This document shows, one piece after another, positions 7,827-56,504 of a stretch of 64,000 bases of DNA. The notes under the pieces are model-generated. The model saw nothing but the letters and a program-made list of their open reading frames with translations. It had not been told where the DNA came from and did no database searches. Numbering within the stretch: the stretch's first letter is position 1; every line of letters starts with the position of its first letter. The DNA is taken from the IMG/VR virus record IMGVR_UViG_3300045988_154277; one strand, written 5' to 3'. Position numbers and translations under genes: made by a program. Source of the stretch: a virus.

Positions 7827-7847
7827 GTAATATATACGTGAAAAACG
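7827..7847 (-). promoter_or_regulatory. Early-type promoter P1 (minus-strand core TATATATTAC; plus strand GTAATATATACGTGAAAAACG)
   Basis: One of seven copies of the conserved motif. Always placed as gene-stop, hairpin, motif, next minus-strand gene. The core equals the reported phiKZ early consensus TATATTAC. Confidence 0.6.
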
Positions 7848-7866
7848 TTTCACTTACACTTTTAAA

Positions 7867-7902
7867 TAAAGCGATACAGGAGTTGAGGGTTGCCCCTCAA
7901 CT
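7867..7902 (-). terminator. Terminator hairpin (atacaggagttgagggttg/cccctcaactcctgtat)
   Basis: 16-bp stem directly after stop 7920, followed on the minus strand by CGCUUUAUUU. Confidence 0.6.
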
Positions 7903-7919
7903 CCTGTATCTTAATTACG

Positions 7920-10796
7920 TTAGAATGATGGTGGCGGTGGTGTTTCGTCGAAGTTCATGTCCTGAGGTTCTTGTGGTGTACCACCTTCCTCCGGAGCACT
8001 ACCTTGTCCTCCTCCACCTTGATCCACTTGGTCGAATGCCTGATCCAAGTCAGATGCTTGTTCCTCAGGATTCATAGTTCCACCTTCTTCTGGAGCTCCA
8101 CCCGTGGGTTGTTCTCCACCGAACTCATCGGTAGTTCCTCCCATATCGGATCCTCCACCCATATCACCGTACGGGTTATCACCTTGTTCTTCCAGGTGTT
8201 TCCTGGCTTCATCTACGACATATTTCTTGAAGTTATCGAACTTAAGCTTCTGGTTCGTAACGTAGTCGTAGAGATCGAATGCGTTCTTGATGTTGATATC
8301 CTTCGGGAATGGGATATCGAACGAACTCTGGAATCCAACTTGCTTGATGTAATCACGAATCATATCCGATTTAACGGTTTCTCGGAAGAGGGTGAACATC
8401 TCTTTCGCATCCTGATCCATGATCTGATTTTCATTGAAGATCATCTGCAGAACACGATCGATCGCATCCGCATACGAAGTGATCTCTTCGTACTGGGCTT
8501 TGTCGACCACGATCTGAGGAGCAGGCAAGGAAATCTTGATGTTCTTGATCACCGTCTGAAGTTGTTTCTTGATGGAGTCTTTGTTCAGCTCCACTTCCTG
8601 CTTCGACTTCGGAGGTTTCGGATCGGATCCTTCTGCTTCATTGGAAGCTTTCATATCCTTACGGCTCTTGGAAGAGGTCTTCAGGATCTCTTCGATCCTC
8701 TTCTGCAGTGGGGAGGAGTACTTGAGATATGTACGGATCAGCTTGTTTCCGAACTTGGTCGTCGTCTTCTGTTCTCCCTTGATCTTGTTGTTGTACATCA
8801 AGTTCGTAGTAGCAACAGAACGAGAGTATTCCTGTTCCCCTGTTTGGTTAAGAGCAGCATGAGGAACTTCCAACCCGGTGATGATCCAGTTGCTCAGCTG
8901 TTCCAGGAACGCCGTATCAGGAGAGATCGCATTCGCAGATTTCCTATCGGTTGTGATGTTGAGGTTCTCACGAAGTCCTTTCATGTTCTTCGGGAGCAAC
9001 GTAAGTGATCTCTGGAGGAGATCTCGTTGTACCGTCAACGGTTCGTTATCGAACCGCAACATCTTCTTCTCGATGAACGCATCTCGCACCATAGCGAGAT
9101 ACTGTGTGACGTTGGCGTTCTTCTCATCCACATCCACTTCGATGACTTTGTTGTCGATCGCATTCTCTGTGGCAGCCATGATACCGGAGATCAGAAGAAC
9201 CGTTCTCAAGGAGAGAAGTGTACTCAGATCCTCGATACGCGATTTACCAGTTCCATCGATGTGGTAATCATAAGCCATGTACACCATCATGGAAGCTGGG
9301 ACGAATACCAACCCTACTCTCTTACGATCCAAGAGATAACGGAAAAGACAGAGTGTCGTCGCTTCATGCTCTTCGATCGTAGCCCCTGAGAAACCATATT
9401 CTTCCAGTTTGTTGTTGAGCAGGTTCCTCATCGTAAGACCGAACATCATGGCAGTCGCTTTGAAGCGTTGATCGTCGTTGATGCCAGCTGCATATTTGTA
9501 CGCTGCTGGTTGACCGAATGTCGCCTGCATCGCACCTTCTGTCAACTTACGAGGACCGTTGTAGGTAGAACGATCGTAGACATGATCGGTCAATGGAGTA
9601 CCCCACTGGTTCACCAGAATGAAGTAACCGATGTGCTTATCGGGTGCACCAGGGATCGTCACTGGGATCACAGAGGAGTAAGGAAGATCAATCACGGTTG
9701 GATGGTGTTTCTCTTCCAAAGACTCTTCTGTATCGAGAAGATAAGTTGGATTAGCAGCATCCATCAAGAAATGTTCCAGAACTTTCTTCTCCATGTTCTT
9801 CGCAGCACCGTCGTAACGACTCTTCGTATTCAACTTCGTCGCATCGTACGTGATCACAACGGACTTCTTCGCTTCGGAGAACAGCTCCTTGATCGCTTTC
9901 TTGGTCTCTCTTGTGGTTGCAACTACCTCTGGATCTGTGAAGACCTCGTAAGACTTATCACTCAGTCTCCAATTTTCGAACATCTGATCGATATCTGCAT
10001 CGATCTTGTTGAGAAGATCATCATAGTGCTGTTTCTTACGACCCTCTGTTGGACGGATCGTTGGAATAAGCAACTCCATAGATGCGTCTTTGGCGTCGTA
10101 CATCATCGGTGGATCGTTATCATATTCCAGACGTTCACTTCCCATCGTGAAGTTGCCAGGGATCATCTGTTGATTCATCTGAGGATGATTGACATTCTTG
10201 ATGATCTCTTTGACATCGTGACCTGCTTTGATCTCATCGATATCCACCGCCGCATTCAGTGTATCGATATTCACCTGAGGTACTATGAGGATCGGAGAAG
10301 CGCCATCTTGGAAGATGGCTTTCTTCATCCAAGTCTTCATACGAGGAGCCAACTCAAACGTACCGTTGAAGAACTCAGTCAACTCAGAGGAGATCTTATC
10401 TTCGATATCCTGACCGAGATCGGTCTTCTCCAATAAGATCTGAATGCTGTTCGTCTGAAGATCGGTGGGACTGATCACAGAACTCACCCAGATATCGGCA
10501 GCGTCTTTCAGCTCAGGAGCCAACACCCCGAAACTTTGAGCAGTCCGAGACCAATTACCAGCCTGCTGAGAGATACCCAACAGCTGGTCAAGGAATTCAG
10601 AAGTGGAAGGAAGTTGTTCCGTATGGGAACCGTCGGGTGAGTAGATACCAGGAAGGTACCGCATCTCGGTTGGGGTATGAAGAGAGAGTTCGACATCCTG
10701 ATGTTGATCCTGTTCCGGGTTGTCTTCCGGGAACGAAACACCGAGGATTTTGCCTAACCTCTTCAGCCCTCTTGTAAAACTATTGTCTGTAGGCAT
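7920..10796 (-). CDS. Large hypothetical protein (958 aa) with C-terminal acidic Gly-rich low-complexity tail
   Basis: Continuous ORF. The last ~80 aa are GGSDMGGTTDEFGGEQPTGGAPEEGG...PPPPSF. No recognisable catalytic motif. Confidence 0.6.
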   Translation of the reverse strand: MPTDNSFTRGLKRLGKILGVSFPEDNPEQDQHQDVELSLHTPTEMRYLPGIYSPDGSHTEQLPSTSEFLDQLLGISQQAGNWSRTAQSFGVLAPELKDAADIWVSSVISPTDLQTNSIQILLEKTDLGQDIEDKISSELTEFFNGTFELAPRMKTWMKKAIFQDGASPILIVPQVNIDTLNAAVDIDEIKAGHDVKEIIKNVNHPQMNQQMIPGNFTMGSERLEYDNDPPMMYDAKDASMELLIPTIRPTEGRKKQHYDDLLNKIDADIDQMFENWRLSDKSYEVFTDPEVVATTRETKKAIKELFSEAKKSVVITYDATKLNTKSRYDGAAKNMEKKVLEHFLMDAANPTYLLDTEESLEEKHHPTVIDLPYSSVIPVTIPGAPDKHIGYFILVNQWGTPLTDHVYDRSTYNGPRKLTEGAMQATFGQPAAYKYAAGINDDQRFKATAMMFGLTMRNLLNNKLEEYGFSGATIEEHEATTLCLFRYLLDRKRVGLVFVPASMMVYMAYDYHIDGTGKSRIEDLSTLLSLRTVLLISGIMAATENAIDNKVIEVDVDEKNANVTQYLAMVRDAFIEKKMLRFDNEPLTVQRDLLQRSLTLLPKNMKGLRENLNITTDRKSANAISPDTAFLEQLSNWIITGLEVPHAALNQTGEQEYSRSVATTNLMYNNKIKGEQKTTTKFGNKLIRTYLKYSSPLQKRIEEILKTSSKSRKDMKASNEAEGSDPKPPKSKQEVELNKDSIKKQLQTVIKNIKISLPAPQIVVDKAQYEEITSYADAIDRVLQMIFNENQIMDQDAKEMFTLFRETVKSDMIRDYIKQVGFQSSFDIPFPKDINIKNAFDLYDYVTNQKLKFDNFKKYVVDEARKHLEEQGDNPYGDMGGGSDMGGTTDEFGGEQPTGGAPEEGGTMNPEEQASDLDQAFDQVDQGGGGQGSAPEEGGTPQEPQDMNFDETPPPPSF

Positions 10797-10829
10797 CCTA
10801 TGCTCAAACCTTTAAATTAGGAGGTTCAA

Positions 10830-15395: not shown

Positions 15396-15478
15396 GTTGG
15401 ACCTCCTTTCTCCACCGTTACCTTAGGTGGTGTTGTGTTTAGTGGTTAAGTTGTGATCCTCTGTCAGGTACTCATTAA

Positions 15479-15499
15479 GTAATATATACGTGAAAAACG
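15479..15499 (-). promoter_or_regulatory. Early-type promoter P2 (core TATATATTAC)
   Basis: Sits in a ~55-nt cassette identical to the one at 29850 (ctgtcaggtactcattaagtaatatatacgtgaaaaacgatgaactacactg). Confidence 0.6.
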
Positions 15500-15504
15500 A
15501 TGAA

Positions 15505-15541
15505 CTACACTGAGGGTGCTGACTACGCACCCTCAGTGTAG
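15505..15541 (-). terminator. Terminator hairpin (ctacactgagggtgc...gcaccctcagtgtag)
   Basis: 15-bp stem after stop 15615. The minus-strand tail UUCAUCGUUUUUCACG runs into the promoter. Confidence 0.6.
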
Positions 15542-15614
15542 TTGTGTTATTATACAAAAAAGATAGTGATAACAGAGATGTCCGGACATCTCTGTTATCA
15601 CTTAGTGTGTAAGG

Positions 15615-17449: not shown

Positions 17450-19347
17450 TCATTGGGTTGATCTCACCGGATACAACTGGTGCGGATGGCCTAATGTTGT
17501 TGTTATCATAGCGTTTGCTCGTTAGACAAACTATTCTCTACGTTTCCGTAGATGTTCGGACTATCTTTCAATCCTTATGACTAAGGACAACCGGTCTTTG
17601 GAACACACTTGTGTTCTACTCAGCGTTTCAGCATGATAGTCTCTGATCCTTCTTCCTGGTAACAGGAAGCTTGGAAGCTGATATCCCATTATTACTTCAT
17701 AAGAAGTCTGATCCTTAGCACCATGTGGATACATGGCTTTTATTTCAGCATAGATCATATCAATCATTCTTTCTGCTTTCGCGACTATCACGTTCATCCT
17801 TACGGATCCCGTTGTAGTTGATTGATCTCTTAGGGTATCCCAGCCGTTAACACGGTTTATGCAGCCACAGTGTTACCACTATAGCGCCCCCATACACACC
17901 AGTCATGTGTGAGAGGTAGAGCCAAGATACTTTCAACCACCAACTGAGACGGGTGTGCCTTGAGGAGTGCGACAGGCATATTCCGTCCACCTGTTGTCGA
18001 TTTGGTTTCTGTATTCTCCAGTGAGCGAAATCTCTTCGTGAGTACAGTCAGAAGACTATTGTCGTTGCAAATCGTTGGATTCGCACGGAACACGGAGTTC
18101 GCCATCATCCAGCTCTCTCCTTGAGAAGCTGTGGTGACGAATCGTTTCACCGTATCCGGTGTCAATCCTTCGTTCTTCGCATTGATCACTCCGAAAAGCT
18201 TCGTATTGATTGACGACACCAATGGTGCCATCAACTGACTCAACGAACCGATCTTCTTAGAGAACAAGTTCGTCGGTTCGTAACTGACGATCCACCGATC
18301 GATGTTGTAGAACACCTCTCGGAGAAGTTCGTAGATGCCGTTGACTTGGATGCCGATCGTAGCCAACTGATACTGTGCCGGTGGGTCCAGCAAAGTCGCA
18401 GTGGTCTCAAGATGCTTCTCTGCATTGTCGTAGAGCAGCTGAGCATTCGTAGTACTCGGATAGGTGTATTTGCCTAGCACGGTCTTGTAATAGACCGGGT
18501 GGGTCGCTATCAAATCACGTAATCCGAATCTCGTATACTCAGTGAGACACATCAGGTAAGATGCGATCACCCTTCTCTTGAAGAGATCGTCAAGACAGGA
18601 GTTGTGAACCTTAAGGTAGATATCTTCTCTGATCTCGATGTGAGAGTACTCGTTCGACTCTTCCATCTTCGGTACCAAGGAGATCTCTCCAGGCTGAAAC
18701 CCATAATACTGCATCGTCTTATCGAACGATAGTTCGACCAGATGATACAGGATGATTGGGGTAACACCAGCCTTCTTCCCGCGTCCTCTCTTTCCTTGAT
18801 GGATCTTCACTGTGGGTACGATCTCACGACATACTCTGCCGTCAGTCGTTGTGAAGACGAACTGCTCTGATCTTCTGAAAGTCAATGGTGCACGCATGAC
18901 TTTAATGATCAGACCATCTTGGATACGATGAAGACCGCCGCGCTCTACGATGGCGAACATCGGGAAATATTGCGTGTCGGATAGGATCACCGCTCCATGA
19001 TCCAGATAAGGGATACTGATGTGCAGTGGGTATTGCACATTTTCGAACTCGAAGATGAACTTCAACTGTTCGAATGAACTCTTCTGGATTTGGATCTTCT
19101 TCTTCAGGATCGTGTTGTTACGGATATACTCGATACGCTCGTCAGGAGTTAACCGTTGATACCCAATATAACGTAATCGACCTTTGAAAAGCTTTACTGA
19201 TTCTTGGAACATCACATCGAGATAATCAGGTATCTTCTTAATACTGTTCTCTCTGAAGTGAAGGAGGAAGTCGTCGTTGAAATCCGGGAGCAGATCACTT
19301 GCTCCGATCAGGACATTCCTCAGTACTGGATTGAAATGTTCATCCAC
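17450..19347 (-). CDS. RNAP beta subunit N-terminal fragment, interrupted by a group I intron (exon 1 19347..17905, exon 2 17506..17450)
   Basis: LRYIGYQRLTPDERIEYIRNNTILKKKIQ aligns to E. coli beta [43 protein letters not shown] aligns to the fork-loop GANMQRQAVP. Exon 1 ends on codon CAU (ends in U). The ORF-track reading frame runs on into the intron. Confidence 0.6.
17507..17904 (-). ncRNA. Group I intron A (about 398 nt, no ORF)
   Basis: Homologous to the introns at 40872..41286 and 59203..59606. Shares UGAAAUAAAAGC and the GAAA-capped P4/P5 region (GGUCGAAAGAC-like). Has P7-like GAUCAGAGACUA and a UUAGUC partner. Hairpins carry compensatory changes relative to copy B. Ends ...GCUAUG. 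Confidence 0.6.
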
Positions 19348-20528: not shown

Positions 20529-20571
20529 GATGATATCCTTTGGTTGATTTGATTGAACATACTTTCTAGTA

Positions 20572-20588
20572 GTAATATATACGTGAAA
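20572..20588 (-). promoter_or_regulatory. Early-type promoter P3 (core TATATATTAC)
   Basis: Motif GTAATATATACGTGAAAG follows terminator 20658-20693. Confidence 0.55.
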
Positions 20589-20657: not shown

Positions 20658-20693
20658 TGATCACTACGTGTAGTTAACTACACGTAGTGATCA
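20658..20693 (-). terminator. Terminator hairpin (tgatcactacgtgtag ttaa ctacacgtagtgatca)
   Basis: 16-bp perfect stem 5 nt after stop 20699. Confidence 0.6.
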
Positions 20694-22469: not shown

Positions 22470-25400
22470 TTAGAGGTTGGTATCGAGCATCATCGATTGA
22501 AGGAGTTTACTTCCCACTACAGATGCTCGAGTACGACTATTCGGATCGATCGTATCCAGATCAGCTTCTCCGTTCTCTTCCAACATCCTGCGGAACTCGC
22601 TATACCCGTGGATGTTACCACCACGGATGTTCACCAATTCCTGCATCGTCTTGCTGAGTCCACGAGCAGCGAGGATCTGGATCTCCGGGTTCGTGATGGA
22701 ACAAGCGCGACTGTCACCAGTAACTTGCCCAGTCAACCCATCGATCGTCCGATCATTATCCGGAACTGAAATCTTCTCATCCAAGAACTGTTGTTGTCTT
22801 CGGATGGGGAGTTTCACGAACATATACTTGTTGTCGGTCAGATACTTACGACCAGTTGCACGGTCATACATCCAAACACGTTGGAAGAGATCCAACCCGA
22901 TCATATCACAAGCTTTCAGAAGATCTTCGTTCTGCAAGTTCACGATCATGTTGGGAGCGACGATGTGGAGCTGCCACTTGCCTTCCTTCATGTAGTTCAT
23001 GAACTGATCAAACTCTTTGTCATTCATCTGTCCTATGATCTGACGATACCGTTTGGAGTTCAGTCCGGACGGTTCCATCGTATCACAGAGCTTACAGATG
23101 TAGTCCAAGATCTCCTTCTTTTTCTGAGCGATCTTGGATGATGCGGTTGATGCTTCCATAGAAGAACCTAATTGTTCTGTTGACGATTGAGACTCCGAAT
23201 CAAAAGAAGTACATTCCAATGATTCGACAGCTGGTCCGAACTGTTTTACCATACTTGGATCAAACTTAGTTTCCCAAGTCACAGTGATCTTCTGTTTCGA
23301 AGTGTACTTCAATGGTTCATCATCCACATATCGACACTCACGTTTCGTATCTCCACCACCAAACGTTTTTAACTTAGACTTTACATCATCAGTCAGTTTG
23401 ATAGAGTAAAGATACCCAGTGGATTCACCATGTGTTTCTTTAAACGTCTTTGCGTTGTGATACACAGTGATGTGTTTTGGAATTGTATTAAGTTTGGAGA
23501 CGTCTTGTTTCCAAACATCATAACTCCAATGAATAGAACGATAACCGTGGTTCTCTTCTCCATACAAATCTTGTTTGTTTATGATGAAGATAGAAGCGAT
23601 CCCTTTCAGAGGAGAAAGGAAGATTGACTTCTTATATTGAGAAGCTCGTCCATAACCTTTCAGTTCTGTCAGATCGTTTGGAGATCCATGATAGAGTTCA
23701 TCACCCCATGTTTTCATCTGAGCAGAAGTTAGCTTTTCAGCTGACATCTTCAGCACATCAGTCTTCAAGACCATCAAGTACATCTTCTCTCTAGTTTCTA
23801 CAATCTTGAATCCCATAGACTCATACAGATGACACACCTTCTGGTTCGTCTTGTACGCACAGATGTAGATCTCAGTTGTGATTGGGTTGTGTTTCAGCAC
23901 ATATTGAATCGTAGCAGATACACTCTGCTTACCATAGCCCTTTCCCTGATACTTGGGGAAGATACCGAGATTAAACAAATCCACGGTGTTGTCTTTATAG
24001 AACATCACACCGATCGATCCGATCACCTCTGATCCATGCATCAACAAGAAGAACTGACGTCCTTTCTTCAGATCAGCTTTGACATCACTCGGAGTCCATT
24101 TCTTATAGTCATCTGGATCGTCGTCAATCAGATCAGCTGTATCTGTCACATACTTGACTTCTACCTGATTGGATAGATCCAGTTCCTTCAAAGTAATGGA
24201 ACTAGCTGGTAACGTCAGAGATTCAAGACTTATAGGTAACACTTCCATAGACACATGGACAACATCGCCTTCCAATTCCAGACTGGCTAAAGACTTAGAC
24301 ATCCTTTTTGGTTTCGGGGCTTTCCCTCCAGTCAGTTTTGGATTATGAACGTATTGTACATCCACATTGGTGTAAGTATTTGGTTGTATCCCATTAATAC
24401 TCAAATGATTTGGATCACCAGTGTATCTTAGGATAGTCTTCTTGTCTGATACTGTTTCCGAAAGAAAGTCTTGTGTACAGCGGTTTGTTGGAACTTTGTA
24501 AACATCGACCGACACAGTCTGCGTTGGCTTACAACGATATCTCCAATTAGGTTTTCCAATATCGTTGTATTCAACGATGATCAGAGAGTTGTGAAGATTG
24601 ACCTGTTTTGGTATAATGTTAAACAGAACAGTTCCACGTTTCATATTCCAAGTTGCAGTTTTAGCACCAAGCGCAACAGCATAATTGCTATCTGCACACA
24701 CTAGAATTCTATTCCCTACCTTAGGAAGATCCGTTCCACCTGCTGGAATACCAACGTAAACAGGTTTCCCCTTAACGTCAACCACTTCAACTTCGCCAGC
24801 CTGGACATTAGCTGCCTTTTCCTCTGACACCACGCAATCCTCAGGGATATCCAACGACTCAAAACCACGGAAGAACGCTTTCACGTTCTCACGTTCTTTC
24901 TTATCAACGATCTGATCGAACTGGTCTCCGGACCACTGCATGATATCCTCCATACGGGTTGAGAGGTTCGCTTCCTTGCCGGTATCAAGAACCAGACTGA
25001 TGATTTCACAATCTGTATCCTGACCGATACGGTGCACACGGTCAGATGCCTGCTGATACTCGATCGATCTCCAAGGTTTGTTCAGGAAAATCACTGTGTT
25101 GGCAGCCGTCAAGGTTGCTCCAGTACTCAACATCTTCAAAGATGCGATCAATGGATTCAACGACTGATCCTCTTGGAACCGTTTTACCGTGTTAGTCAGT
25201 TCAGAAGCTGTTTTACCGTATACAGCAAGTGGAGAATACCCTTCCTTCTGGAAGTAGTTATAAGCCAACTCGATCGTATCCACATAAGACGTGAATACAA
25301 CAGTCTTCTTCATGGCATCATCCACATACTGCTTCAGATCAGCAGCTTGCATCATCTCAGAGGTCATCTGCATACGGAGATGTGTCAATAAGGTACCGAT

Positions 25401-29478: not shown

Positions 29479-29849
29479 TTTCTTTTCCTTTTTAGTTATT
29501 GATTATACATGTTGTGAGTACCTGCAGAGTTACATATCCGGACTAGACGTTAGTAATCAACGCCTTTGGAAGGTTGTCCCAAGTGCTTTGGGGCATTCCA
29601 AACTCCTGAACAAAGAACTGCTCAGTGCGTTTGAGATCTCTCCCAAGAAGCAAGTAGACGCTCCGCATATGGACGACTGCAGGATGCAATCCCCATTTCG
29701 AATTAGCCATTGCCATTCGACACCACCGTCCTTTCTGATCTCTTCTTTGAACTACGTGATCAACGTAGGTTCTTGCGATGCTGGTTACATCGCAAGGGTC
29801 GTGGATGAAGTTGTGTAGGAACGATATGTCTCTGTCAGGTACTCATTAA

Positions 29850-29870
29850 GTAATATATACGTGAAAAACG
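29850..29870 (-). promoter_or_regulatory. Early-type promoter P4 (core TATATATTAC), in a duplicated 55-nt cassette
   Basis: Identical to the P2 cassette. Confidence 0.6.
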
Positions 29871-29875
29871 ATGAA

Positions 29876-29910
29876 CTACACTGGGTAGGATCATCTCCTA
29901 CCCAGTGTAG
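29876..29910 (-). terminator. Terminator hairpin (ctacactgggtagga...tcctacccagtgtag)
   Basis: 15-bp stem after stop 29917. Confidence 0.6.
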
Positions 29911-29916
29911 TTGTTA

Positions 29917-37014: not shown

Positions 37015-38931
37015 TCAATCTAAGATACCGAAGAACGGACCGAACAGACCGATCGGTCGAGCGATGTTCGAAGTCTGAGGATCGTTGAAATAATCCTTGA
37101 GTCGTTCGAATGCAAGCTCCATCGACACAGTTCGGTTGCTGATCACATCTTCCAACTTACCGAACGTCACATGATAGGGATCGGTTACCGTACAGAGTTG
37201 ATAGTTCTGCTGGTTGTCGATCACCAAGTTGTGAAGCACGGTCTCCAGGTGGAAGATCGGGATCGAAGATTTTCGCCAGACGATCTCGCAGAAATCGTTC
37301 AACGCGTGAGGAACACTGTTATAGTTCCCTATCGTAGCGGTCAGGAAGGTCGCTACGCTCTTGGTATACGTGATCATATCATCGTTCATGATGATGAATT
37401 TGAACACGTCCTGCTTCGCATCGAACCCTGCCATCGGTACGATCACACCATCTTCGTCGAACTCCAACTTGTTGTAGTTGGTTCTCATGTGGTCCAGGAA
37501 CGCCTCACTCAGATACGGTACGAACGCATCGTACTCCATCTGGATCGTCTCCACCAGTTCCCCATCTTTCAACAGCTCCAGGTAAGACACCTTACTGAAC
37601 GACTCTGCGATGGGAAGTGTATCCAGGTTCAAGTCAACGATCGGCCCAAGCGCATCACTCGGGATCCGGATCTGATACTTATGGATATGTTTCCCCCACT
37701 TCTGATCGAACAGGATGGAGTTGTTGTTCTTGATGAAATACCTTGCAGCACTTTCCGTCAAGTTGTAGATGAGCGAGTTGGTGTTGATCAGGTGTTTCGC
37801 CGACAACACTTTCTGTGATACAGTGGATGATACCTTCGTAGAGCACAGCAGTCCGATATGGATCCCATGTGGAAGATACTTGATCAACCGATCCTTCCCA
37901 TATCCAGCACAGTGTTCACACATCCCGTCCAGATGGTTGCACCCGAACTGAGAGATCATGTTCACTGTTTGACCAACGTATCGATCGATGACGTTCATGT
38001 TGCTGAGAGCGACCCTTCGTCCATCATCGATGATGATCTTGTTGATGAAGTTCTTGGCATACTCTGGTTTGATCGTCATCGGGATCACGTTGTGATCGGA
38101 TCCACAATTTCCAGGATGAACCGTCTGTACCGTGGAACAACCGAGTCTCATCTTCCTTCCGAAATACTGAGACTTCTTGATCACATCTCGTGAGAAGAAG
38201 ATGGACTTCTTCGCTGAGAGGGATTCGGTTGCGAACTCCACCGGTGATTTCAACCCACTGAAGGATGAGGATGAGATCACGAACTTCCGCATCGTATCAT
38301 CGATGTCCGACCGAGGTCCATATGCCAGCAGCATCTGTGGGATCTGGTTGGTCTTCAGAACACCAGCTTGGATGTAGTGATACAGCACGTTGTTCGGAGT
38401 CTTCGGATCTTTCAAGATCTTCAGAAGTTCCTTCCCATCCTGTCTCAGCTGAGCTTCCGCAACCTGAGTACCCCACTTCGGATCGTAGACCTTATCAGCC
38501 AGTTCCTTGATCGGAGGATACTCCAACAGTTGCGTCAAGCTCAGACCATCGATAGATGGCATGTACTCACCCAACTCCGTTGTGATGAAGTTGTAGATCC
38601 TCGATACATTCCGGAAGATCTTGTGGACCATGAGCATGTGGTCCACGTCTGGACGCTCATCCAAAAACCGATCATAGATGATACTGTAGATCTTACTGCT
38701 ACTATCGCTGGAGATACTCTTGATATTGAACGTCTCCTTGATCGTTGGTAAGATCCCGAAGTACATCAACGGTTCCCAGTACAGGATATTCAGGATCGCC
38801 ATGCGTGTAGGCATCTGAACACTCTTGTTGTCTCCAAGAACCAGTTTACACATCCCACGATCTTGATGTGTCTGACGAAGTTGATCGGCATAACCGGCTT
38901 GGGTATACTGATCTGGTGTTAATACAAGCAT
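37015..38931 (-). CDS. RNAP beta-prime subunit C-terminal fragment (638 aa)
   Basis: NVLYHYIQAGVLKT aligns to bridge-helix NVLQYFISTHGARKG. GCSTVQTVHPGNCG aligns to trigger-loop GEPGTQLTMRTFHIGG. Start overlaps the stop of the beta C-terminal gene (ATGA). Confidence 0.5.
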   Translation of the reverse strand: MLVLTPDQYTQAGYADQLRQTHQDRGMCKLVLGDNKSVQMPTRMAILNILYWEPLMYFGILPTIKETFNIKSISSDSSSKIYSIIYDRFLDERPDVDHMLMVHKIFRNVSRIYNFITTELGEYMPSIDGLSLTQLLEYPPIKELADKVYDPKWGTQVAEAQLRQDGKELLKILKDPKTPNNVLYHYIQAGVLKTNQIPQMLLAYGPRSDIDDTMRKFVISSSSFSGLKSPVEFATESLSAKKSIFFSRDVIKKSQYFGRKMRLGCSTVQTVHPGNCGSDHNVIPMTIKPEYAKNFINKIIIDDGRRVALSNMNVIDRYVGQTVNMISQFGCNHLDGMCEHCAGYGKDRLIKYLPHGIHIGLLCSTKVSSTVSQKVLSAKHLINTNSLIYNLTESAARYFIKNNNSILFDQKWGKHIHKYQIRIPSDALGPIVDLNLDTLPIAESFSKVSYLELLKDGELVETIQMEYDAFVPYLSEAFLDHMRTNYNKLEFDEDGVIVPMAGFDAKQDVFKFIIMNDDMITYTKSVATFLTATIGNYNSVPHALNDFCEIVWRKSSIPIFHLETVLHNLVIDNQQNYQLCTVTDPYHVTFGKLEDVISNRTVSMELAFERLKDYFNDPQTSNIARPIGLFGPFFGILD

Positions 38932-41388
38932 TATACTTCCTCCTCGACTTCTTCGACCTCGAACCCGACGGCTGCCAGCTGGTGTTTGAAGATCCCGATG
39001 TTACTGGCACCATCGATCATCTCTTCTGTAGACATCCCGAGATCGTAGATCCCGCTGGGTTTATCAGCCGTCAGCAACAGATACTGGAGTCGATCGATCG
39101 CTGCAGGAGAGTTGCTGTATGTACACAGTAATCTCACAGCCATCTTCGCACCACAACACATCGTAAGAATAGCGGTCTCATCCTCACCATATCGGATCGG
39201 TGTTTGACCGAACATACTCTGTGCTTTCAGACTCTTGCTGTTGGGTTTGATCGGAGATAGGAACTGACTCTGATATCCGAACTCGATGCAGTTCAACTGG
39301 TCGATCGGGATCTTACCGAGCAGGTGGATATAGAGTTCTCCACAGAGAGCATCCGTACAGGTCTTCACCTGTTTCTTACCACCTTTCCCATCTTTGGCGT
39401 TGTAAGTAACCGGAGTTCTCCGGATCCCATACTTCTTCGCCAATCGATCGATCATCTCAGGACTGATGCTGTCACAGAACGGAGGGATCACCATAAAGAT
39501 CCCGTGTTTCTTGCAGCTGTCCACGAACTCATCTTCATAGTTCTTGGTCTTCTCACGAACATACTGCGCGAACACAGGTCTTACCTCTTGGAGATAATCG
39601 AGGATATACTCATATTGAGCTTCGATCGAACTCCACTGTTGAGTCCAGAGATTCCGCACAACCACATCAGAGACATAGTTGATATATTGTTCGTAATACT
39701 GACCACCATTCAGACGGTTGAACGGAGATGCACCTGTGATCAAGATACTGGCTCTGGTTCCATCCTCCATCGTCGGCATATCTTCATCTTCCCAGATGTC
39801 CGAGATCACACCTTTGTTACCAGCGTTACCAACCAGCTTGTAACCACGGTCGACTTCCCGCTGATAAGCATAAGTGATCTTAACTCGGATGAAGTCAACC
39901 GGTTCCTTCTTATTCATCAGGAACATGGACTTCCCACCTCTCCAGTAACTCCAACCTTTACAGCTGGTTACCAGAGTGTTGAACGCAGGAGTAACCTCAC
40001 GTCCTTCTCGTTTCATCTGCTCATACACATCAACGATAGCCGTCCAATAGGTGTGATACTGATCCTGATACTGCATCAGCTGGGCGTATGCTGTATCAGA
40101 ACTCAGCTCTGGATACTTCTTGTGGTTCGTGAAAATCTCAACATCGATCACAGTTGCACCGGCTTCTGCTCGATAGAGATCATCGTGGAACTCCTCTGCA
40201 CGACGGAGCTTCTCATCGGTCATATCCGTTAAGAACGAACTCTTGTTCTGTTTCCGGAATCCGATCAGGATCCCATCTTCACGGATCTGTTCACCGATTT
40301 CAGGGAACGTCTTATACTCGTTCTCCCCACCGTACAGATTCAGAGGGATGTCGTCGATCTTGACATCGATCGTCACACTGTCGATCACCGTGTGTGAGAG
40401 TTGTTTCTGAAGGCTTCTGCTGATCACGAATGCGTCTTCTGTGGTAGCCCACAGAGGAAGATATGCGACGTTGGCATTCACTCCCATCTTGTACAACCCA
40501 TCTTCGTGATTCGGAGATGTAACGAACTTCGTTGTTTGACTGACCAGACGTCCTTCTTGCAGCTGGTCAAAGTTCATCTGTTTGTTGATGTATCCGAATC
40601 CGCTATACAGTTCGGTATAACTGTCGACTTCGAAATACCCAACTTTACCATCTTCTGCTCCGATGTAGATCACAGTGAGACTGGGGTTGTTCTTGATCTT
40701 CTGAAGACCTGCGTTGACTCGGAACTTCGGGATCACAGCGACGATCTGTACGTCCTGATCTCGAGTACTTTTGTCAAATTCATATTTTCCGATCTTCGTC
40801 TCGTAGCCGGACTGGATCCGTGCTGTCTGACACCCATCCACCACCATCATCTGCGGGGCATTTGAGGAGAGCATTCTTTATGTTCAACCGAGTGCGTTAC
40901 TTCTCGGCCCGCAGCATTACCTGCTCCGCTTATAGATTTGCTATAAGAACAGACTATATCTCACTCCTTACTGAGTAAGGAGAACCTCCATTTCCACCCA
41001 CTTGGGTGTACATTTAGTCGTTGATCTTTCTTCTCAGAGAGAAGCTTAGAAGCTGATTTCCCATTGTTCGTTATCACACGATAACGACATCCCTTAGCAC
41101 CGTGTTGTTACACACAGCTTTTATTTCAGCATAGGACATTCTAATCATTCTTTCTGTCTTTCGACCGCGTTCACGCTTACCCTTGCGAGTTACGTTGTAG
41201 CTGATTAGACTTTAGTGGATCCCAGACCGTTAGAAGGTTGATTTCACCACTACATTACTGTAATAGCGCCCAATGTTGTTTAGGCCACGTTGCGAACTGA
41301 TGAACTGTAAGAAAGGTGAAAGGAGCGCAGGCGTTCCTGTCAATTCCGGTCTTACATTTAGATCTGATACAAATTGCGATGTCTTCAC
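38931..41388 (-). CDS. RNAP beta subunit C-terminal fragment, spliced (exon 1 about 41388..41287, exon 2 40871..38931)
   Basis: GNAGNKGVISDIWEDEDMPTMEDGTRASILITGASPFNRLNGGQYYEQ aligns to beta GRHGNKGVISKI...PSRMNIGQ. QSMFGQTPIRYGEDETAIL aligns to GGQRFGEMEVWAL. The listed ATG at 40874 is the last three nt of the intron. Exon 1 has a GTG start with AGGAGG 7 nt upstream and ends on CGU. Confidence 0.65.
40872..41286 (-). ncRNA. Group I intron B (about 415 nt, no ORF)
   Basis: Contains P7/P8/P7-prime as UCAACGACUAAAUG / CACCCAAGUGGGUG / GAUAUAGUCU. The P4/P5 region GCGGUCGAAAGACAGAAAG is near-identical to the beta-prime intron. P9 hairpins are present. Ends ...AAGAAUG. Confidence 0.65.
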
Positions 41389-41449
41389 ATTGATTCCTCC
41401 TAGTTTGGGTGTTATAGTTTCCAATGTTATGACTCAACATACTCAGATA

Positions 41450-41463
41450 GTAATATATACTCA
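41450..41463 (-). promoter_or_regulatory. Early-type promoter P5 (core TATATATTAC) driving the intron-containing beta-C gene
   Basis: Motif GTAATATATACTC sits about 60 nt upstream of the exon 1 start. The plus-strand gene 41482 also begins 20 nt to its right, so orientation here is ambiguous. Confidence 0.45.
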
Positions 41464-41481
41464 AAAGGGAGATGAAGCCAT

Positions 41482-47268: not shown

Positions 47269-47319
47269 TGTAACTCCTAGGGTGTTGTGTTCTTGTATAC
47301 TGTGACTTCTTGCTATAGA

Positions 47320-47338
47320 GTTATATATACTTGAAACC
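47320..47338 (-). promoter_or_regulatory. Early-type promoter P6 (variant core TATATATAAC)
   Basis: GTTATATATACTTGAAACC sits about 52 nt upstream of the topoisomerase ATG. Confidence 0.5.
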
Positions 47339-47375
47339 AAGAAGAAACTAATAGTACTAGACATTACTTAAATGC

Positions 47376-47469
47376 ATCTAGTTGAGATGGACACCCATCT
47401 CAACTAGATACTTGAATATAAATCAGTATGTGGTTGTGAACTTGCGCTCTGTATAGTAATACAGAGCGC
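47376..47469 (-). terminator. Two consecutive terminator-like hairpins (15-bp stem atctagttgagatgg; 11-bp stem gcgctctgtat)
   Basis: Directly after stop 47474. Confidence 0.5.
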
Positions 47470-52191: not shown

Positions 52192-52193
52192 AA

Positions 52194-54157: not shown

Positions 54158-54280
54158 TAGAATCCTCCTTGGGTTGATGGGTATAACTTGTTTGTCCTTG
54201 TGATATATTAAGAGTGACATCATACAACAACGACGATCTACATTGACCAGATCAGACATCAGGGTAGAATTGGGAGAACG

Positions 54281-54728: not shown

Positions 54729-54894
54729 AGAGCTCACCTCCTTCTACCACAAACAGGGAACTGTCTTTGTGGTGTGACAGGTTGGAGCATGTCTGTAATA
54801 CACCTCCTATCACTTAAATTCAAAAGAGTGATGGGTTGTAGATGTGCGAAAATCACCAACCAGATCAGTCATCGGTGATTTGTGTCACGTACGA

Positions 54895-55068
54895 TCATTG
54901 AGCGATAGCAACACTCGATGCTTTTGACGTGAGTTTTGCATCAATAACACGTGTTTGCTTAAGAGCATTGCGCTCCCAGCGTTGACGATCACGTGCTTCT
55001 TGTTCAGCAACACACTTGTATCCGGCATTCGGATCTAAGATGCGTTTGAAGAACTCATCTGAGGTCAT
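54895..55068 (-). CDS. Small protein (57 aa, MTSDEFFKRILDPNAGYKCVAEQ...)
   Basis: Manual translation. RBS TAGGAGGTGATGTCAT. Confidence 0.45.
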   Translation of the reverse strand: MTSDEFFKRILDPNAGYKCVAEQEARDRQRWERNALKQTRVIDAKLTSKASSVAIAQ

Positions 55069-55547
55069 ATGACATCACCTCCTAACTACTGTAGATTAAA
55101 CAGTCTTGCAGTAGGACTGGTTATAAGAGTCAGTAACAGAACCTCTCTCCTTCAGGTGAGGGATGTATGTTACTACGAACTATTCTTCCGTTGGACGTTA
55201 GTCCATCGTGATGTAATAGAAGGACAGTATGCTAAGAACATATGGTTAAAATGTTCTTGTTGCCTGGAACAGGCCATCGACGTAAGTCGGTGTACTCGGT
55301 AACACGAGGAAGCTCCTTCCTTCAGGTAGGAGTAGTTCACGTTCAGATCTGTAGTCACCTACCATCCATCACTCGTCTTATCGAAAAAGAGACAGCTAAG
55401 GGATGAAGGATACAACTCCTTCATCCCTTAGCTAATCGTGTATTCGAAGTATAACTCTACACACGTTGGATATAGTAAGAACAACACTTCACAGTTGTCG
55501 AAACAACATCGACCAGATCAGTCATCGATGTTGAATTGTACTCACAT

Positions 55548-55745
55548 CTAAGTGGTTAACATTGCCACGATAGATGGCGTTTTAGTTGGTTTGTTGCTGT
55601 GATATATTCCGTAGTGTTTACGGAGCATATCCATCAACATCTTCTGCTTAGCTTTGGCACGTGCTACACGAGCATCATGCATTTCAGAAGCAGATTTAGG
55701 AGATAGCACGGTTGGGTGCTTCTCATCCATCATCGCAAACGGCAT
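55548..55745 (-). CDS. Small protein (65 aa, MPFAMMDEKHPTVLSPKSASEMHDARV...)
   Basis: RBS TAGGAGGTGATTTGT. Shares MxFA...KHPxVL...ASExH with the 54582 gene. Confidence 0.5.
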   Translation of the reverse strand: MPFAMMDEKHPTVLSPKSASEMHDARVARAKAKQKMLMDMLRKHYGIYHSNKPTKTPSIVAMLTT

Positions 55746-55846
55746 ACAAATCACCTCCTAACTACCGACTCAAGCACAAGTGAGTCGATCAGCTTGGTTG
55801 GATCAGATCTGTAAAACTATGAAGTGTTGTTCAATACAAACAAGTT

Positions 55847-55886
55847 AGCTAGGGATAGTGGAGTGTTCGCCTCCACTATCCCTAGC
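55847..55886 (-). terminator. Terminator hairpin (17-bp stem agctagggatagtggag)
   Basis: Follows the lysozyme stop at 55893. Confidence 0.55.
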
Positions 55887-55892
55887 TGGTTA

Positions 55893-56426
55893 TTAGTTGA
55901 CTTTGTTCCAGAGGTTGGACTCAGCCTGTCTACGTTTAACAAGCCCCGGTGCGATATCGTAAACGATCTTACCGTTCTTATCCTTTACGATTTTGCCCTT
56001 CGAGACTCTCTTCACTTTGTTCCATCTCTGGATCTCAGAGGGAACCGAACCATACTGGCGCTGGTTCAGTTTCTTAAGGAGAGTGGATGAAGCGAAGTTC
56101 GATCTCCCCACGTTGTAAGTGAATACGATGAGAGCAGCCTTCTGGTTGTCCGTCAGAGGGACCTTGACCTGTGTATCGATATATCCACCGATACTGGTTA
56201 CGTATCCGTCCAGAATACGATTTGCTTCTTCTTTAGTCATGTGACCACGAGCAACGAGGTTCTTATCATTAAACCCCCAACCGATGGCTTTCTTGTTGAC
56301 ATCAGTGTAGGGGGCTGAACGGAAGGTTTCGAACTGCTTGATCAGTTCGGTTGCCGAAGTCTTCCAATCTTGTGCGAAGACGTTGATGGTGAGGATGATG
56401 GTGATAAGAGTGATGATGTGTTTCAT
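55893..56426 (-). CDS. GH24 (T4-lysozyme family) muramidase with N-terminal signal peptide (177 aa)
   Basis: Signal peptide [45 protein letters not shown] aligns to [44 protein letters not shown] aligns to [29 protein letters not shown] at the C-terminus. Confidence 0.7.
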   Translation of the reverse strand: [177 protein letters not shown]

Positions 56427-56485
56427 GTTGTTGATTCCTTTTGTTTAGGGTTGTTGGGTTGATACAGCTAGATGTATTCAATAAG

Positions 56486-56504
56486 TAATATATATGCGAA
56501 ATCT
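56486..56504 (-). promoter_or_regulatory. Early-type promoter P7 (core TATATATTAC) with upstream CAGTGTAGTTCA element
   Basis: CAGTGTAGTTCA sits 12 nt upstream of the core, the same spacing as in P2 and P4. Confidence 0.55.

What the first reader, a model, noticed from the sequence alone, without database searches (positions are those of the whole stretch)
7827..56504. Seven copies of a conserved promoter (minus-strand consensus cAGTGTAGTTCa-N12-TATATATTACtta) that matches the phiKZ early consensus
The plus-strand motif GTAATATATAC(G/T)TGAAA(A/G) occurs at 7827, 15479, 20572, 29850, 41450, 47320 and 56486. It is always immediately downstream of a terminator hairpin and upstream of a minus-strand gene, so it is functionally oriented on the minus strand as TATATATTAC. 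Three copies also share an upstream CAGTGTAGTTCA box at a fixed 12-nt spacing. Two copies (15479 and 29850) sit in an identical 55-nt cassette. Downstream genes are small proteins of unknown function, RNAP subunits, topoisomerase and lysozyme, a typical early or host-takeover set. This is probably the virion-RNAP promoter of this phage.
Basis: partly seen in the sequence, partly recalled or inferred. Interest (0 to 1): 0.7.

Follow-up and report, generated by a model that had tools for sequence, protein, structure and literature searches.

The report
Early promoters of a giant phage
The seven repeated motifs are real. They are almost certainly the start signals that an uncultivated phiKZ-like giant phage uses, through the RNA polymerase it carries in its particle, to switch on its first genes, which is a well-known kind of signal found here in a new, distant relative.

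Summary
A weight-matrix scan finds exactly the seven listed sites in the window. All seven lie on the minus strand and in intergenic DNA, score 28.9-36.2 bits, and nothing else reaches 12 bits (0.3 expected by chance).

The window is part of a 278-kb metagenomic phiKZ-like jumbo phage whose proteins are under 35% identical to any GenBank phage. The 8-nt core TATATTAC equals the published phiKZ early-promoter consensus. The flanks match phiKZ early promoters in register (TTT-N6-core, then TG about 5 nt downstream).

Two sites precede the non-virion RNA polymerase operons, as in phiKZ, 201phi2-1, Erwinia RAY, Proteus phage 10 and Serratia 2050HW. In a 361-kb relative (65-80% protein identity) the promoter is a conserved island, while the flanking hairpin and leader sequences have diverged.

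- The strict 18-mer fits only 4 of 7 sites.
- The identical cassette is 54 nt, not 55.
- The last site starts at 56485.
- A terminator hairpin precedes 6 of 7 sites, not all.
- The upstream box AGTGTAGTTCA is a real promoter element (11 of 14 sites in this species), specific to this clade.

Verdict: virion-RNAP early promoters, a new member of a known kind. In passing, three group I introns were found inside RNA polymerase subunit genes.

The parts
7821..7860 (-). Early promoter 1: AGTGTAAGTGAA-N6-TTTCACGTATATATTAC plus the predicted start region. It drives two small ORFs (7496-7678 and 7134-7361).
   Evidence: (30.5 bits). The orthologous promoter sits at the same place in the 361-kb relative, at L149:2910.
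15473..15512 (-). Early promoter 2: CAGTGTAGTTCA-N5-TTTCACGTATATATTAC. The box is also the 3' arm of the preceding hairpin. It drives three small ORFs, two of them paralogues.
   Evidence: 36.2 bits; 54-nt cassette.
20566..20588 (-). Early promoter 3 (no upstream box): TTTCACGTATATATTAC. It drives a 383-aa gene, the nvRNAP beta-N gene (gp123-like, 17857-19347) and a 566-aa gene. The predicted 5' UTR is about 39 nt.
   Evidence: (30.6 bits). phiKZ has an early promoter at 120657 ahead of gp121-gp123.
29844..29883 (-). Early promoter 4, identical to promoter 2 over 54 nt. It drives small genes down to the hairpin at 27688-27722.
   Evidence: Conserved in the 97%-identical IMG/VR relative L011.
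41444..41466 (-). Early promoter 5 (no box, no hairpin, divergent intergenic region): TTTTGAGTATATATTAC. It drives exon 1 of nvRNAP beta-C (GTG at 41388), then nvRNAP beta'-C, a gp75-like helicase and a 111-aa gene, ending at the hairpin 34991-35025.
   Evidence: (28.9 bits). A promoter at the same position exists in 201phi2-1, Erwinia RAY, Proteus phage 10 and Serratia 2050HW.
47314..47336 (-). Early promoter 6 (core variant TATATAAC, no box): TTTCAAGTATATATAAC. It drives topoisomerase II (44992-47268). The predicted 5' UTR is about 46 nt.
   Evidence: (29.0 bits). An orthologous box-less TTTTCAGCTATATATAAC lies upstream of the topoisomerase gene in the 361-kb relative. The TATATAAC core recurs at 4 other sites of this species.
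56479..56518 (-). Early promoter 7: CAGTGTAGTTCA-N5-TTTCGCATATATATTAC. Here the box is not part of a hairpin. It drives the lysozyme gene (55893-56426).
   Evidence: 34.7 bits; PF00959.
7873..7910 (-). Terminator-like hairpin (17 bp) after the 958-aa virion protein gene, 35 nt upstream of promoter 1.
   Evidence: In the 361-kb relative the structure is kept but the sequence is entirely different.
15503..15543 (-). Terminator-like hairpin (17 bp). Its 3' arm is the upstream box of promoter 2, and its T-run is the promoter's TTT element.
20658..20693 (-). Terminator-like palindromic hairpin (16 bp) after the 585-aa gene, 75 nt upstream of promoter 3.
29874..29912 (-). Terminator-like hairpin (17 bp) whose 3' arm is the upstream box of promoter 4.
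47374..47411 (-). Hairpin (17 bp) 43 nt upstream of promoter 6.
56527..56563 (-). Hairpin (15 bp) 31 nt upstream of promoter 7.
40876..41281 (-). Group I intron between exon 1 (41388-41282) and exon 2 (40875-38931) of the nvRNAP beta-C gene. It explains the 600-nt gap between promoter 5 and the long RNAP ORF.
   Evidence: RF00028, 36.5 bits, E = 1.2e-7, below the gathering score of 50. (the spliced protein aligns colinearly with five relatives across the junction).
37015..38931 (-). nvRNAP beta'-C subunit gene (phiKZ gp74-like), second gene of the unit driven by promoter 5.
17857..19347 (-). nvRNAP beta-N subunit gene (phiKZ gp123-like) in the unit driven by promoter 3.
57730..59786 (+). vRNAP beta'-N gene (phiKZ gp180-like). 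It encodes part of the enzyme proposed to read the motif. It has no early motif upstream and is interrupted by a group I intron (about 59203-59606).
22470..27623 (-). 1717-aa fusion of a gp203-like SNF2 helicase, an acetyltransferase and a gp149-like vRNAP beta-C segment. It is separated from promoter 4's unit by the hairpin at 27688-27722.

Best explanation
These are the early promoters of an uncultivated phiKZ-like (Chimalliviridae-type) jumbo phage.

Promoter anatomy (shown):
- The full promoter is about 40 nt on the minus strand.
- An upstream box AGTGTAGTTCA is present at 4 of the 7 window sites and 11 of 14 sites in the species.
- 5-6 nt downstream of the box comes TTTC(A/G)N.
- Then follows the AT-rich core (G/A)TATATAT(T/A)AC.
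- A purine lies 6-7 nt after the core.

Mechanism (inferred):
- By analogy with phiKZ and AR9, the core lies at about -13 to -6 and transcription starts at the G/A 6-7 nt downstream of it.
- In window coordinates the predicted starts are about 7821, 15473, 20566, 29844, 41444, 47314 and 56479.
- The multisubunit virion RNA polymerase, injected with the DNA, recognises these sites without host RNA polymerase or new protein synthesis.
- It transcribes short units that end at strong hairpins.
- These units encode small proteins of unknown function, lysozyme, topoisomerase II and, importantly, the subunits of the second (non-virion) polymerase, which then takes over middle and late genes.

Terminator-promoter junctions (shown):
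- Where an early unit follows another unit on the same strand, the promoter is packed directly behind that unit's terminator hairpin.
- At three sites (two in the window, one just outside it) the box itself forms the hairpin's 3' arm and the promoter's T-run is the terminator's T-tail.

Shown: the motif, its placement, its register match to phiKZ, and its conservation in relatives. Inferred: start sites, the enzyme, and the timing.
For: Statistics and placement:
- 7 sites against 0.3-0.57 expected, all on one strand and all intergenic.

Identity of the phage:
- A 278-kb scaffold with phiKZ-specific Pfam families and phiKZ-like proteins at about 30% identity.
- It carries vRNAP (gp180-, gp149-like) and nvRNAP (gp123-, gp71/73-, gp74-like) homologues.

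Match to known promoters:
- The core equals the published phiKZ consensus TATATTAC and resembles 201phi2-1 (TTTRARR_BTATATTACDWHDGTG), OBP and N1M2 (PMC7058600), and AR9 (AAATATATATTAT-(6N)-G, PMC5312081).
- My scan of the phiKZ genome gave 25 extended sites, all on the + strand and intergenic, often just behind a GGGGAGGGCTTTAT hairpin. These include sites ahead of gp68 and gp121-123.
- Flank profiles correlate best in register (r = 0.59 upstream at offset 0; r = 0.48 downstream at offset +1).

Positional conservation:
- A motif of this kind lies in the same divergent intergenic region before the nvRNAP beta-C gene in 201phi2-1, RAY, Proteus phage 10 and Serratia 2050HW.

Footprint in a relative:
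- In the 361-kb relative (coding DNA 72-76% identical), the promoter after the 958-aa gene and the one before topoisomerase are conserved islands. The hairpin keeps its structure but not its sequence, and the leader is unalignable.

Not a host promoter:
- Sigma-70-like sites are depleted (5 vs 20, 26 vs 33, 25 vs 40 expected), and none lies at a motif site in the right orientation.

Other support:
- Predicted 5' UTRs of 39-56 nt at the four sites with clear start codons fall within the 27-66 nt that the same start rule gives for ten phiKZ early promoters checked by hand (site positions; gene starts); dRNA-seq found typical phiKZ 5' UTRs of 31-40 nt (PMC8244752).
- Density is about 11 sites in 83 kb, roughly 37 per genome. 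Published counts are 28-32 in phiKZ, 31 in N1M2 and 41 in AR9.
- The review PMC7598289 states that such a motif is found in every RNAP-encoding jumbo phage, and that wherever it was tested it proved to be the early-promoter consensus.
Against: - There are no transcript data for this phage. Start sites, timing and rifampicin resistance are all untested.
- Even for phiKZ, the link between the motif and the virion enzyme rests on physiology (independence from rifampicin and from protein synthesis). No vRNAP had been purified as of the 2020 review (PMC7598289).
- Three units have long predicted leaders (78, 128 and 143 nt), which is unusual.
- A lysozyme gene and, further down unit 6, a baseplate-like gene are not classic early genes. 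These genes may have further promoters or be expressed continuously, as some AR9 genes are.
- The downstream G is 1 nt closer to the core than in phiKZ, so the exact start site is uncertain by 1-2 nt.
Confidence: 0.88

Rival explanations
1. The sites are host sigma-70 promoters. The AT-rich TATATT would act as a -10 box read by the bacterial RNA polymerase early in infection.
For: The core contains TATATT and TATATA, both close to TATAAT. Some RNAP-encoding jumbo phages (RSL2, RSF1) are rifampicin-sensitive (PMC7598289).
Against: - No -35-like hexamer lies 16-18 nt upstream. The consensus scan calls no sigma-70-type site at any of the 7 sites in the gene's orientation.
- The invariant positions (the terminal AC, and TTTC 3 nt upstream of the core) are not sigma-70 features.
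- Sigma-70-like matches are depleted across the window.
- The same core is used by phiKZ, whose infection is rifampicin-resistant (PMC7598289).
Confidence: 0.04
2. The sites are promoters for the non-virion polymerase (middle or late class), or for both enzymes, rather than for the virion enzyme.
For: No timing data exist. A lysozyme gene and a baseplate-like gene lie downstream of two sites. AR9 has continuously expressed genes with dual promoters (PMC5312081).
Against: - Known nvRNAP promoters look different: phiKZ late promoters are TATG at the start site, phiKZ middle promoters have a weak AT-rich motif at -24, and AR9 late promoters are AACA-N6-TA (PMC7598289).
- The motif drives the nvRNAP subunit genes themselves, which that enzyme cannot first transcribe.
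- Structural and vRNAP genes in the window lack the motif.
Confidence: 0.05
3. The motif is a dispersed repeat with no promoter function. It could be a mobile terminator-linked cassette or a recombination or protein-binding site that happens to be AT-rich.
For: Two copies are identical over 54 nt. The box sequence GTGTAGTT also occurs in hairpin arms and in a palindrome at 20658-20693.
Against: - Outside that one pair, the copies share only the roughly 35-nt consensus, not flanking sequence.
- Orientation always matches the next gene.
- Two sites have no hairpin within 70 nt upstream: none at 41450, and the nearest at 20572 ends 75 nt away.
- Orthologous positions are kept across genera with protein identity under 30%.
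- The identical cassette is not followed by paralogous genes.
Confidence: 0.03

Closest known systems
phiKZ early promoters (28-32 sites, consensus TATATTAC, attributed to the virion RNAP)
   Same: - The 8-nt core is identical.
- TTT lies 6 nt upstream of the core, in the same register.
- An upstream element is centred about 20 nt before the core (GTA at the same three positions).
- A T-G follows about 5 nt downstream.
- Sites are intergenic and co-oriented with the downstream gene.
- They often lie just behind a terminator hairpin.
- They lie ahead of the nvRNAP operons (PMC7058600; PMC8244752).
   Different: - The upstream element here is AGTGTAGTTCA rather than phiKZ's A/T-rich tAtT.AAA.
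- The spacer between TTT and the core is CAC/CGC-GTA rather than aAaat.
- The downstream G is 1 nt closer to the core.
- A TATATAAC core variant is common here.
- The genome is 46% G+C against 37% for phiKZ, and the polymerase subunits are only about 25-30% identical.
Predicted early promoters of 201phi2-1, OBP and Klebsiella phage N1M2
   Same: - TTT(C/Y)A-RR-YA-(K/T)ATATTA(C/T) is nearly the same string as TTTCACGTATATATTAC here.
- 31 sites were reported in N1M2, ahead of genes of unknown function, an RNAP beta subunit and a lytic transglycosylase. This is the same mix of genes as here (PMC7058600).
   Different: - Those phages end the core in T (OBP, N1M2) or have an A/T-rich upstream part (TTAWTAVAA).
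- None has the AGTGTAGTTCA box.
Bacillus phage AR9 early promoters (AAATATATATTAT-(6N)-G, 41 mapped by dRNA-seq)
   Same: An AT-rich TATATTA(T/C) core with the start site 6-7 nt downstream. Transcription is independent of protein synthesis and is attributed to the injected vRNAP (PMC5312081).
   Different: AR9 has uracil-containing DNA, belongs to a different phage lineage, and has no upstream box.
Serratia phage 2050HW (Moabitevirus) motif copies
   Same: TTTCACGTATATATTAC is identical over 17 nt. One copy lies ahead of a gene in the position of phiKZ gp68 (orthology not tested), and one lies in the divergent region ahead of the nvRNAP beta gene.
   Different: There is no AGTGTAGTTCA box. The proteins are only about 27% identical.
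Phage N4 virion-RNAP hairpin promoters
   Same: An injected virion polymerase reads phage-specific early promoters.
   Different: N4 uses a single-subunit enzyme that recognises a small DNA hairpin. Here the hairpins are terminators of the upstream unit, vary in sequence and distance, and are absent at 41450 and 75 nt away at 20572.

Membership tests
[quoted passage not shown] | A highly conserved AT-rich element of about 10 nt (TATATTAC-like), repeated many times in the genome. | tested here: met
   7 sites in 64 kb and 7 more in flanking or relative loci. The core is TATAT(T/A)AC.
[quoted passage not shown] | The element is centred at about -10 relative to mapped early transcription start sites. 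| not testable with these tools
   No RNA data. Only a conserved purine 6-7 nt downstream and plausible UTR lengths.
[quoted passage not shown] | The genome encodes two sets of split beta/beta' subunits (virion and non-virion RNAP). | tested here: met
   Homologues of gp180 and gp149 (vRNAP) and of gp123, gp71/73 and gp74 (nvRNAP) lie in the window. Packaging into the virion was not tested.
[quoted passage not shown] | The motif lies upstream of early operons, including the nvRNAP subunit genes, and is absent from structural and late genes. | tested here: met
   Sites 20572 and 41450 precede the nvRNAP operons. No site precedes the tail sheath, virion protein or vRNAP genes. The position is conserved in five other phages.
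[quoted passage not shown] | Transcription is resistant to rifampicin and independent of new protein synthesis. | not testable with these tools
   This requires infection experiments, and the host is unknown.
[quoted passage not shown] | The extended architecture is shared with phiKZ (upstream element, TTT, core, downstream TG) in a fixed register. | tested here: met
   Profile comparison with 25 phiKZ sites: the best upstream correlation is at offset 0 (r = 0.59), and the best downstream correlation is at +1.
Bacterial sigma-70 promoters | A -35 hexamer lies 16-18 nt upstream of a TATAAT-like -10 hexamer. | tested here: not met
   The consensus scan reports no such site at any motif position in the gene's orientation.
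Group I intron (side finding, nvRNAP beta-C and vRNAP beta'-N genes) | Match to the RF00028 covariance model at the curated gathering score. | tested here: not met
   36.5 and 38.9 bits against a gathering score of 50. Both are full-length matches with E = 1e-7 to 2e-8. The third copy gives no hit at E <= 1.
Group I intron (side finding, nvRNAP beta-C and vRNAP beta'-N genes) | Removing the element restores a colinear, conserved protein, with U before the 5' splice site and G at the intron's 3' end. | tested here: met
   Spliced beta-C aligns without a gap to five relatives. Spliced beta'-N restores the catalytic D|FDGD motif.

The most novel reading that the evidence does not exclude
The AGTGTAGTTCA box may define a distinct sub-class of early promoter, read through an extra contact (a virion-delivered specificity subunit or an upstream-binding domain of this clade's vRNAP).

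The box lies about 25 nt upstream of the core and is conserved in two uncultivated phages, but not in phiKZ, Serratia 2050HW or 201phi2-1.

Box-bearing promoters drive the small presumed host-takeover genes and lysozyme. Box-less promoters drive nvRNAP and topoisomerase, and the topoisomerase promoter is box-less in both species. That would give a two-tier early programme.
Probability: 0.15. Interest if true: 0.5.

Novelty: new member of a known kind. Interest (0 to 1): 0.3.

Why it matters
- It gives a ready transcription map for a deep-branching, uncultivated phiKZ-like phage: seven early units in this window, bounded by hairpins. It marks which genes of unknown function are likely early (candidate host-takeover) genes.
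- The 8-nt core recognised by the virion polymerase has stayed identical although the polymerase subunits have diverged to about 25-30% identity. The upstream element has changed over the same span. That contrast is useful for anyone trying to work out how this sigma-less enzyme recognises promoters.
- It is not a new principle. The same kind of motif is routinely found in every jumbo phage of this type.

Tried and rejected
- Megablast of 12 kb against GenBank phages found nothing, so there is no annotated close relative.
- The Ceyssens 2014 paper and the supplements of two phiKZ transcriptome papers are not held. I therefore could not check the phiKZ start-site offset against published coordinates. 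I used the AR9 consensus and the review statement instead.
- The search for related loci with the nvRNAP beta-C protein returned only the 97%-identical contig.
- Close relatives L136-L138 are too similar for footprinting. The 361-kb relative served instead.
- The exact TATATTAC at 33301 (inside a CDS) and TATATTAT at 52117 lack the flanking consensus and score below 12 bits, so I did not count them as promoters.
- Rfam at gathering thresholds and tRNA scans of the window found nothing.
- The idea that the upstream box is merely a hairpin arm was rejected. It is present without any hairpin partner at 56485 and 7827 and at several sites outside the window.

Full report
**What the window is**

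The 64-kb window has no DNA match among 50,697 GenBank phage records. Its largest protein and its RNA polymerase subunit match phiKZ-like jumbo phages at 26-35% identity.

An exact-protein look-up places the window inside a 278,450-bp metagenomic scaffold (ENA ERZ28568400, scaffold_10). The called genes there carry phiKZ-specific Pfam families: phiKZ_gp29PR, PhiKZ_VTX and phiKZ_IP.

Local tblastn against the whole phiKZ genome (fetched) identifies these homologues:

| Window gene | phiKZ homologue |
|---|---|
| 17857-19347 | gp123 (non-virion RNAP, beta-N) |
| 38931-40850 | gp71/73 (non-virion RNAP, beta-C) |
| 37015-38931 | gp74 (non-virion RNAP, beta'-C) |
| 35351-36856 | gp75 (helicase) |
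| 57730-59235, + strand | gp180 (virion RNAP) |
| C-terminus of the 1717-aa ORF 22470-27623 | gp149 (virion RNAP) |
| several structural genes | gp27, gp29, gp128, gp129, gp139, gp164 |

The window therefore comes from a deep-branching phiKZ-like jumbo phage that encodes both polymerases.

**Checking the observation**

- The 11-mer GTAATATATAC occurs 5 times exactly and twice with one mismatch. All copies are on the + strand, against 0.57 expected from shuffles.
- The last copy begins at 56485, not 56486.
- The exact 8-mer TATATTAC occurs seven times, all on the minus strand. Six are intergenic. One (33301) lies inside a CDS and lacks the flanking consensus.
- I built a weight matrix from 13 non-redundant sites of this phage species: the window sites plus sites from the scaffold flanks and a 97%-identical IMG/VR contig.
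Nothing else on either strand reaches 12 bits, against 0.3 expected.
- An independent repeat finder ranks the motif as its top two families. It shows that the identical cassette is 54 nt (15459-15512 = 29830-29883).
- All seven sites lie in the roughly 11% of the window that is non-coding, and all point toward the next minus-strand gene.

**Hairpins**

- Six sites have a 15-17-bp hairpin ending 13-75 nt upstream, directly after the stop codon of the preceding gene.
- Site 41450 lies in a divergent intergenic region and has no hairpin. 'Always' is therefore an overstatement.
- At 15479 and 29850 (and at a further site outside the window), the hairpin's 3' arm is the promoter's upstream box, and the T-run after the stem is the promoter's TTT element. 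This makes a compact terminator-promoter junction.
- phiKZ early promoters likewise sit just behind its conserved GGGGAGGGCTTTAT terminators.

**The full motif**

Additional sites come from outside the window: L135:7308, L136:15855/19813/20852, L003:2039/3367 and L005:1134. With these, the consensus is AGTGTAGTTCA, then 5-6 nt, then TTTC(A/G)N(G/A)TATATAT(T/A)AC, then 4 nt, then T-G-A.

- The box is present at 11 of 14 sites. This includes sites such as 56485 and 7827 where it has no hairpin partner, so it is a promoter element and not just a stem arm.
- The TATATAAC core of site 47320 recurs at four other sites, so that site is a normal variant.

**Comparison with known promoters**

A published table lists predicted early promoters (PMC7058600):

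| Phage | Consensus |
|---|---|
| phiKZ | TATATTAC |
| 201phi2-1 | TTAWTAVAA_HYWTTTRARR_BTATATTACDWHDGTG |
| OBP | ...TTTYARRYAKATATTATYWWADTG |
| N1M2 | similar; 31 sites |

The N1M2 sites lie ahead of unknown genes, an RNAP beta subunit and a lytic transglycosylase. AR9 early promoters are AAATATATATTAT-(6N)-G, with the G as the mapped start site (PMC5312081).

A review states that such a motif can be located in every RNAP-encoding jumbo phage. It is centred near -10 and proved to be the early-promoter consensus wherever it was tested. Early transcription is rifampicin-resistant and independent of protein synthesis, and is therefore attributed to the injected virion RNAP. The nvRNAP genes are early genes (PMC7598289; also PMC13282480).

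I tested the match directly.

- phiKZ has 42 copies of TATATTAC. 25 of them, all on the + strand and intergenic, share tAtT.AAA..aaTTTaAaat.TATATTAC-N5-TG.
- These include sites ahead of gp54 (the nuclear shell protein), gp68 (start of the nvRNAP operon) and gp121-gp123.
- Aligned on the core, the flanking profiles of the two phages correlate best at offset 0 upstream (r = 0.59). TTT lies at -9 to -7 and GTA at -22 to -20 in both.
- Downstream the best offset is +1 (r = 0.48).

**Positional conservation**

The gene order is the same in Xanthomonas LucasX, Proteus phage 10, Goslar, 201phi2-1, Erwinia RAY and Serratia 2050HW. It runs: small divergent gene, nvRNAP beta-C, beta'-C, helicase.

In the divergent intergenic region, four of these phages carry a motif of this kind in the same place as site 41450:

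| Phage | Sequence |
|---|---|
| 201phi2-1 | TTTgagattTATATTACtaaagTG |
| RAY | TTTaagccTATATTAT |
| Proteus phage 10 | TATATTAT |
| Serratia 2050HW | TTTCATGTATATATTAC |

Goslar and LucasX show none there.

**A mid-distance relative**

The composite pattern (box plus TTTC plus TATAT, 20 specified bases) hits only two IMG/VR contigs. One is the 97%-identical relative. The other is a 361-kb contig from the same metagenome.

- The 361-kb phage has proteins 65-80% identical and coding DNA 72-76% identical to the window.
- It uses AGTGTAGTTCA-N5-TTTCATCTATATATAAC.
- After the orthologue of the 958-aa virion gene, the terminator hairpin keeps its structure with an entirely different sequence. The promoter block is conserved, and the leader and next gene are unalignable.
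- The topoisomerase orthologue is preceded by a hairpin and TTTTCAGCTATATATAAC, which is box-less as in the window.
- This is the footprint expected of a functional promoter.

**Rival explanations**

- *Sigma-70 promoters.* The consensus scan reports no sigma-70-type site at any of the seven sites in the gene's orientation. Such sites are depleted overall: 5 vs 20.2, 26 vs 32.8 and 25 vs 40.3 expected.
- *nvRNAP promoters.* Known nvRNAP promoters have a different form (PMC7598289), and that enzyme cannot first transcribe its own genes.
- *Passive dispersed repeat.* This is contradicted by orientation, by conservation across genera, and by the lack of shared flanks. The one exception is the 54-nt pair, whose downstream genes are not paralogues.

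**Predicted units**

I took the start site as the purine 6-7 nt after the core, as in AR9, and by register in phiKZ.

| Promoter | Predicted start | Unit | Predicted leader |
|---|---|---|---|
| 7827 | ~7821 | two small ORFs, to hairpin 7096-7121 | 143 nt |
| 15479 | ~15473 | three small ORFs, to 14519-14556 | 78 nt |
| 20572 | ~20566 | 383 aa, nvRNAP beta-N, 566 aa, to 15565-15602 | 39 nt |
| 29850 | ~29844 | small genes, to 27688-27722 | 128 nt |
| 41450 | ~41444 | nvRNAP beta-C, beta'-C, helicase, 111 aa, to 34991-35025 | 56 nt |
| 47320 | ~47314 | topoisomerase II and following genes | 46 nt |
| 56485 | ~56479 | lysozyme, to 55847-55887 | 53 nt |

The three long leaders (78, 128 and 143 nt) are unexplained.

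**Side finding: group I introns in the polymerase genes**

The 600-nt gap between promoter 41450 and the long RNAP ORF is a group I intron.

- Rfam RF00028 gives a full-length match of 36.5 bits, E = 1.2e-7, below the gathering score of 50.
- Joining exon 1 (GTG 41388-41282, preceded by AGGAGG) to exon 2 (40875-38931) gives a 684-aa protein. It aligns colinearly across the junction with five relatives. The promoter therefore lies 56 nt from the true start codon.
- A homologous intron (38.9 bits, E = 2.2e-8) interrupts the gp180-like vRNAP gene.
- Splicing 59202|59607 restores the catalytic ...GMD|FDGD... motif.
- phiKZ gp180 ends ...PLGAD*, and an unannotated frame 1.4 kb downstream, beyond gp179, reads FDGDTVSFNAV. 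This suggests the same insertion point in phiKZ.
- A third copy follows the gp123-like ORF. It gives no Rfam hit at E <= 1, and its junction is unresolved.

**Verdict**

This is a new member of a known kind. Interest is modest. The clade-specific upstream box and the core that stays identical despite roughly 70-75% divergence of the polymerase subunits are the only points beyond routine annotation.

Noticed in passing
window 40876-41281 (-), with exons 41388-41282 and 40875-38931: An ORF-less group I intron of about 406 nt splits the nvRNAP beta-C (gp71/73-like) gene after codon 35. RF00028 scores 36.5 bits, E = 1.2e-7. The spliced protein aligns colinearly with five relatives. The ORFs called at 41230-41424 and 41255-41488 are artefacts of this structure.
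   Followed up: yes
window about 59203-59606 (+); phiKZ NC_004629 186235-186345: A homologous group I intron (RF00028, 38.9 bits) interrupts the vRNAP beta'-N (gp180-like) gene inside the catalytic NADFDGD motif. Splicing gives ...GMD|FDGDT.... In phiKZ, gp180 ends ...PLGAD*, and an unannotated frame past gp179 reads FDGDTVSFNAV. phiKZ may therefore carry an insertion (gp179) at the same point.
   Followed up: partly
window about 17490-17900 (-): A third copy of the same intron-like element (65-73% identical core blocks) overlaps the 3' end of the gp123-like nvRNAP beta-N ORF. It gives no Rfam hit at E <= 1. A possible 37-aa second exon ends at 17376. The junction is not resolved.
   Followed up: partly
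window 22470-27623 (-): A single 1717-aa ORF fuses a gp203-like SNF2/DEAD helicase, a GNAT acetyltransferase domain and a gp149-like vRNAP beta-C segment. These are separate virion proteins in phiKZ.
   Followed up: partly
whole window: Sigma-70-type promoter matches are depleted relative to shuffles (5 vs 20, 26 vs 33, 25 vs 40). Long perfect hairpins (15-20 bp) mark nearly every unit boundary, many without a canonical T-tail.
   Followed up: no
IMGVR_UViG_3300045988_163688 (loci L145-L149, L152, L153, L007, L063): A 361-kb contig from the same metagenome is a second species of this clade (65-80% protein identity). It uses the promoter variant AGTGTAGTTCA-N5-TTTCATCTATATATAAC. In L146 a gene with an HExxH-type motif (LEHELGH) lies between the promoter and the lysozyme gene.
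   Followed up: partly
window 53400-55900 (-) and 14900-15400 (-): There are arrays of small paralogous ORFs. The 14903-15097 and 15204-15395 products are 49% identical, and 54582-54728 resembles 55548-55745. Repeated 5' regions and individual hairpins accompany them (repeat families D4, D5, D7, D13). No early motif lies between 47320 and 56485, so these genes must use another promoter class.
   Followed up: no
window 52117-52124 (-) and 33301-33308 (-): Two weak look-alikes. TATATTATttgagtg lies in a 350-nt stretch between two hairpins. An exact TATATTACttgagtg lies inside the DUF7194 gene. Both lack TTTC and the box, and both score below 12 bits.
   Followed up: partly
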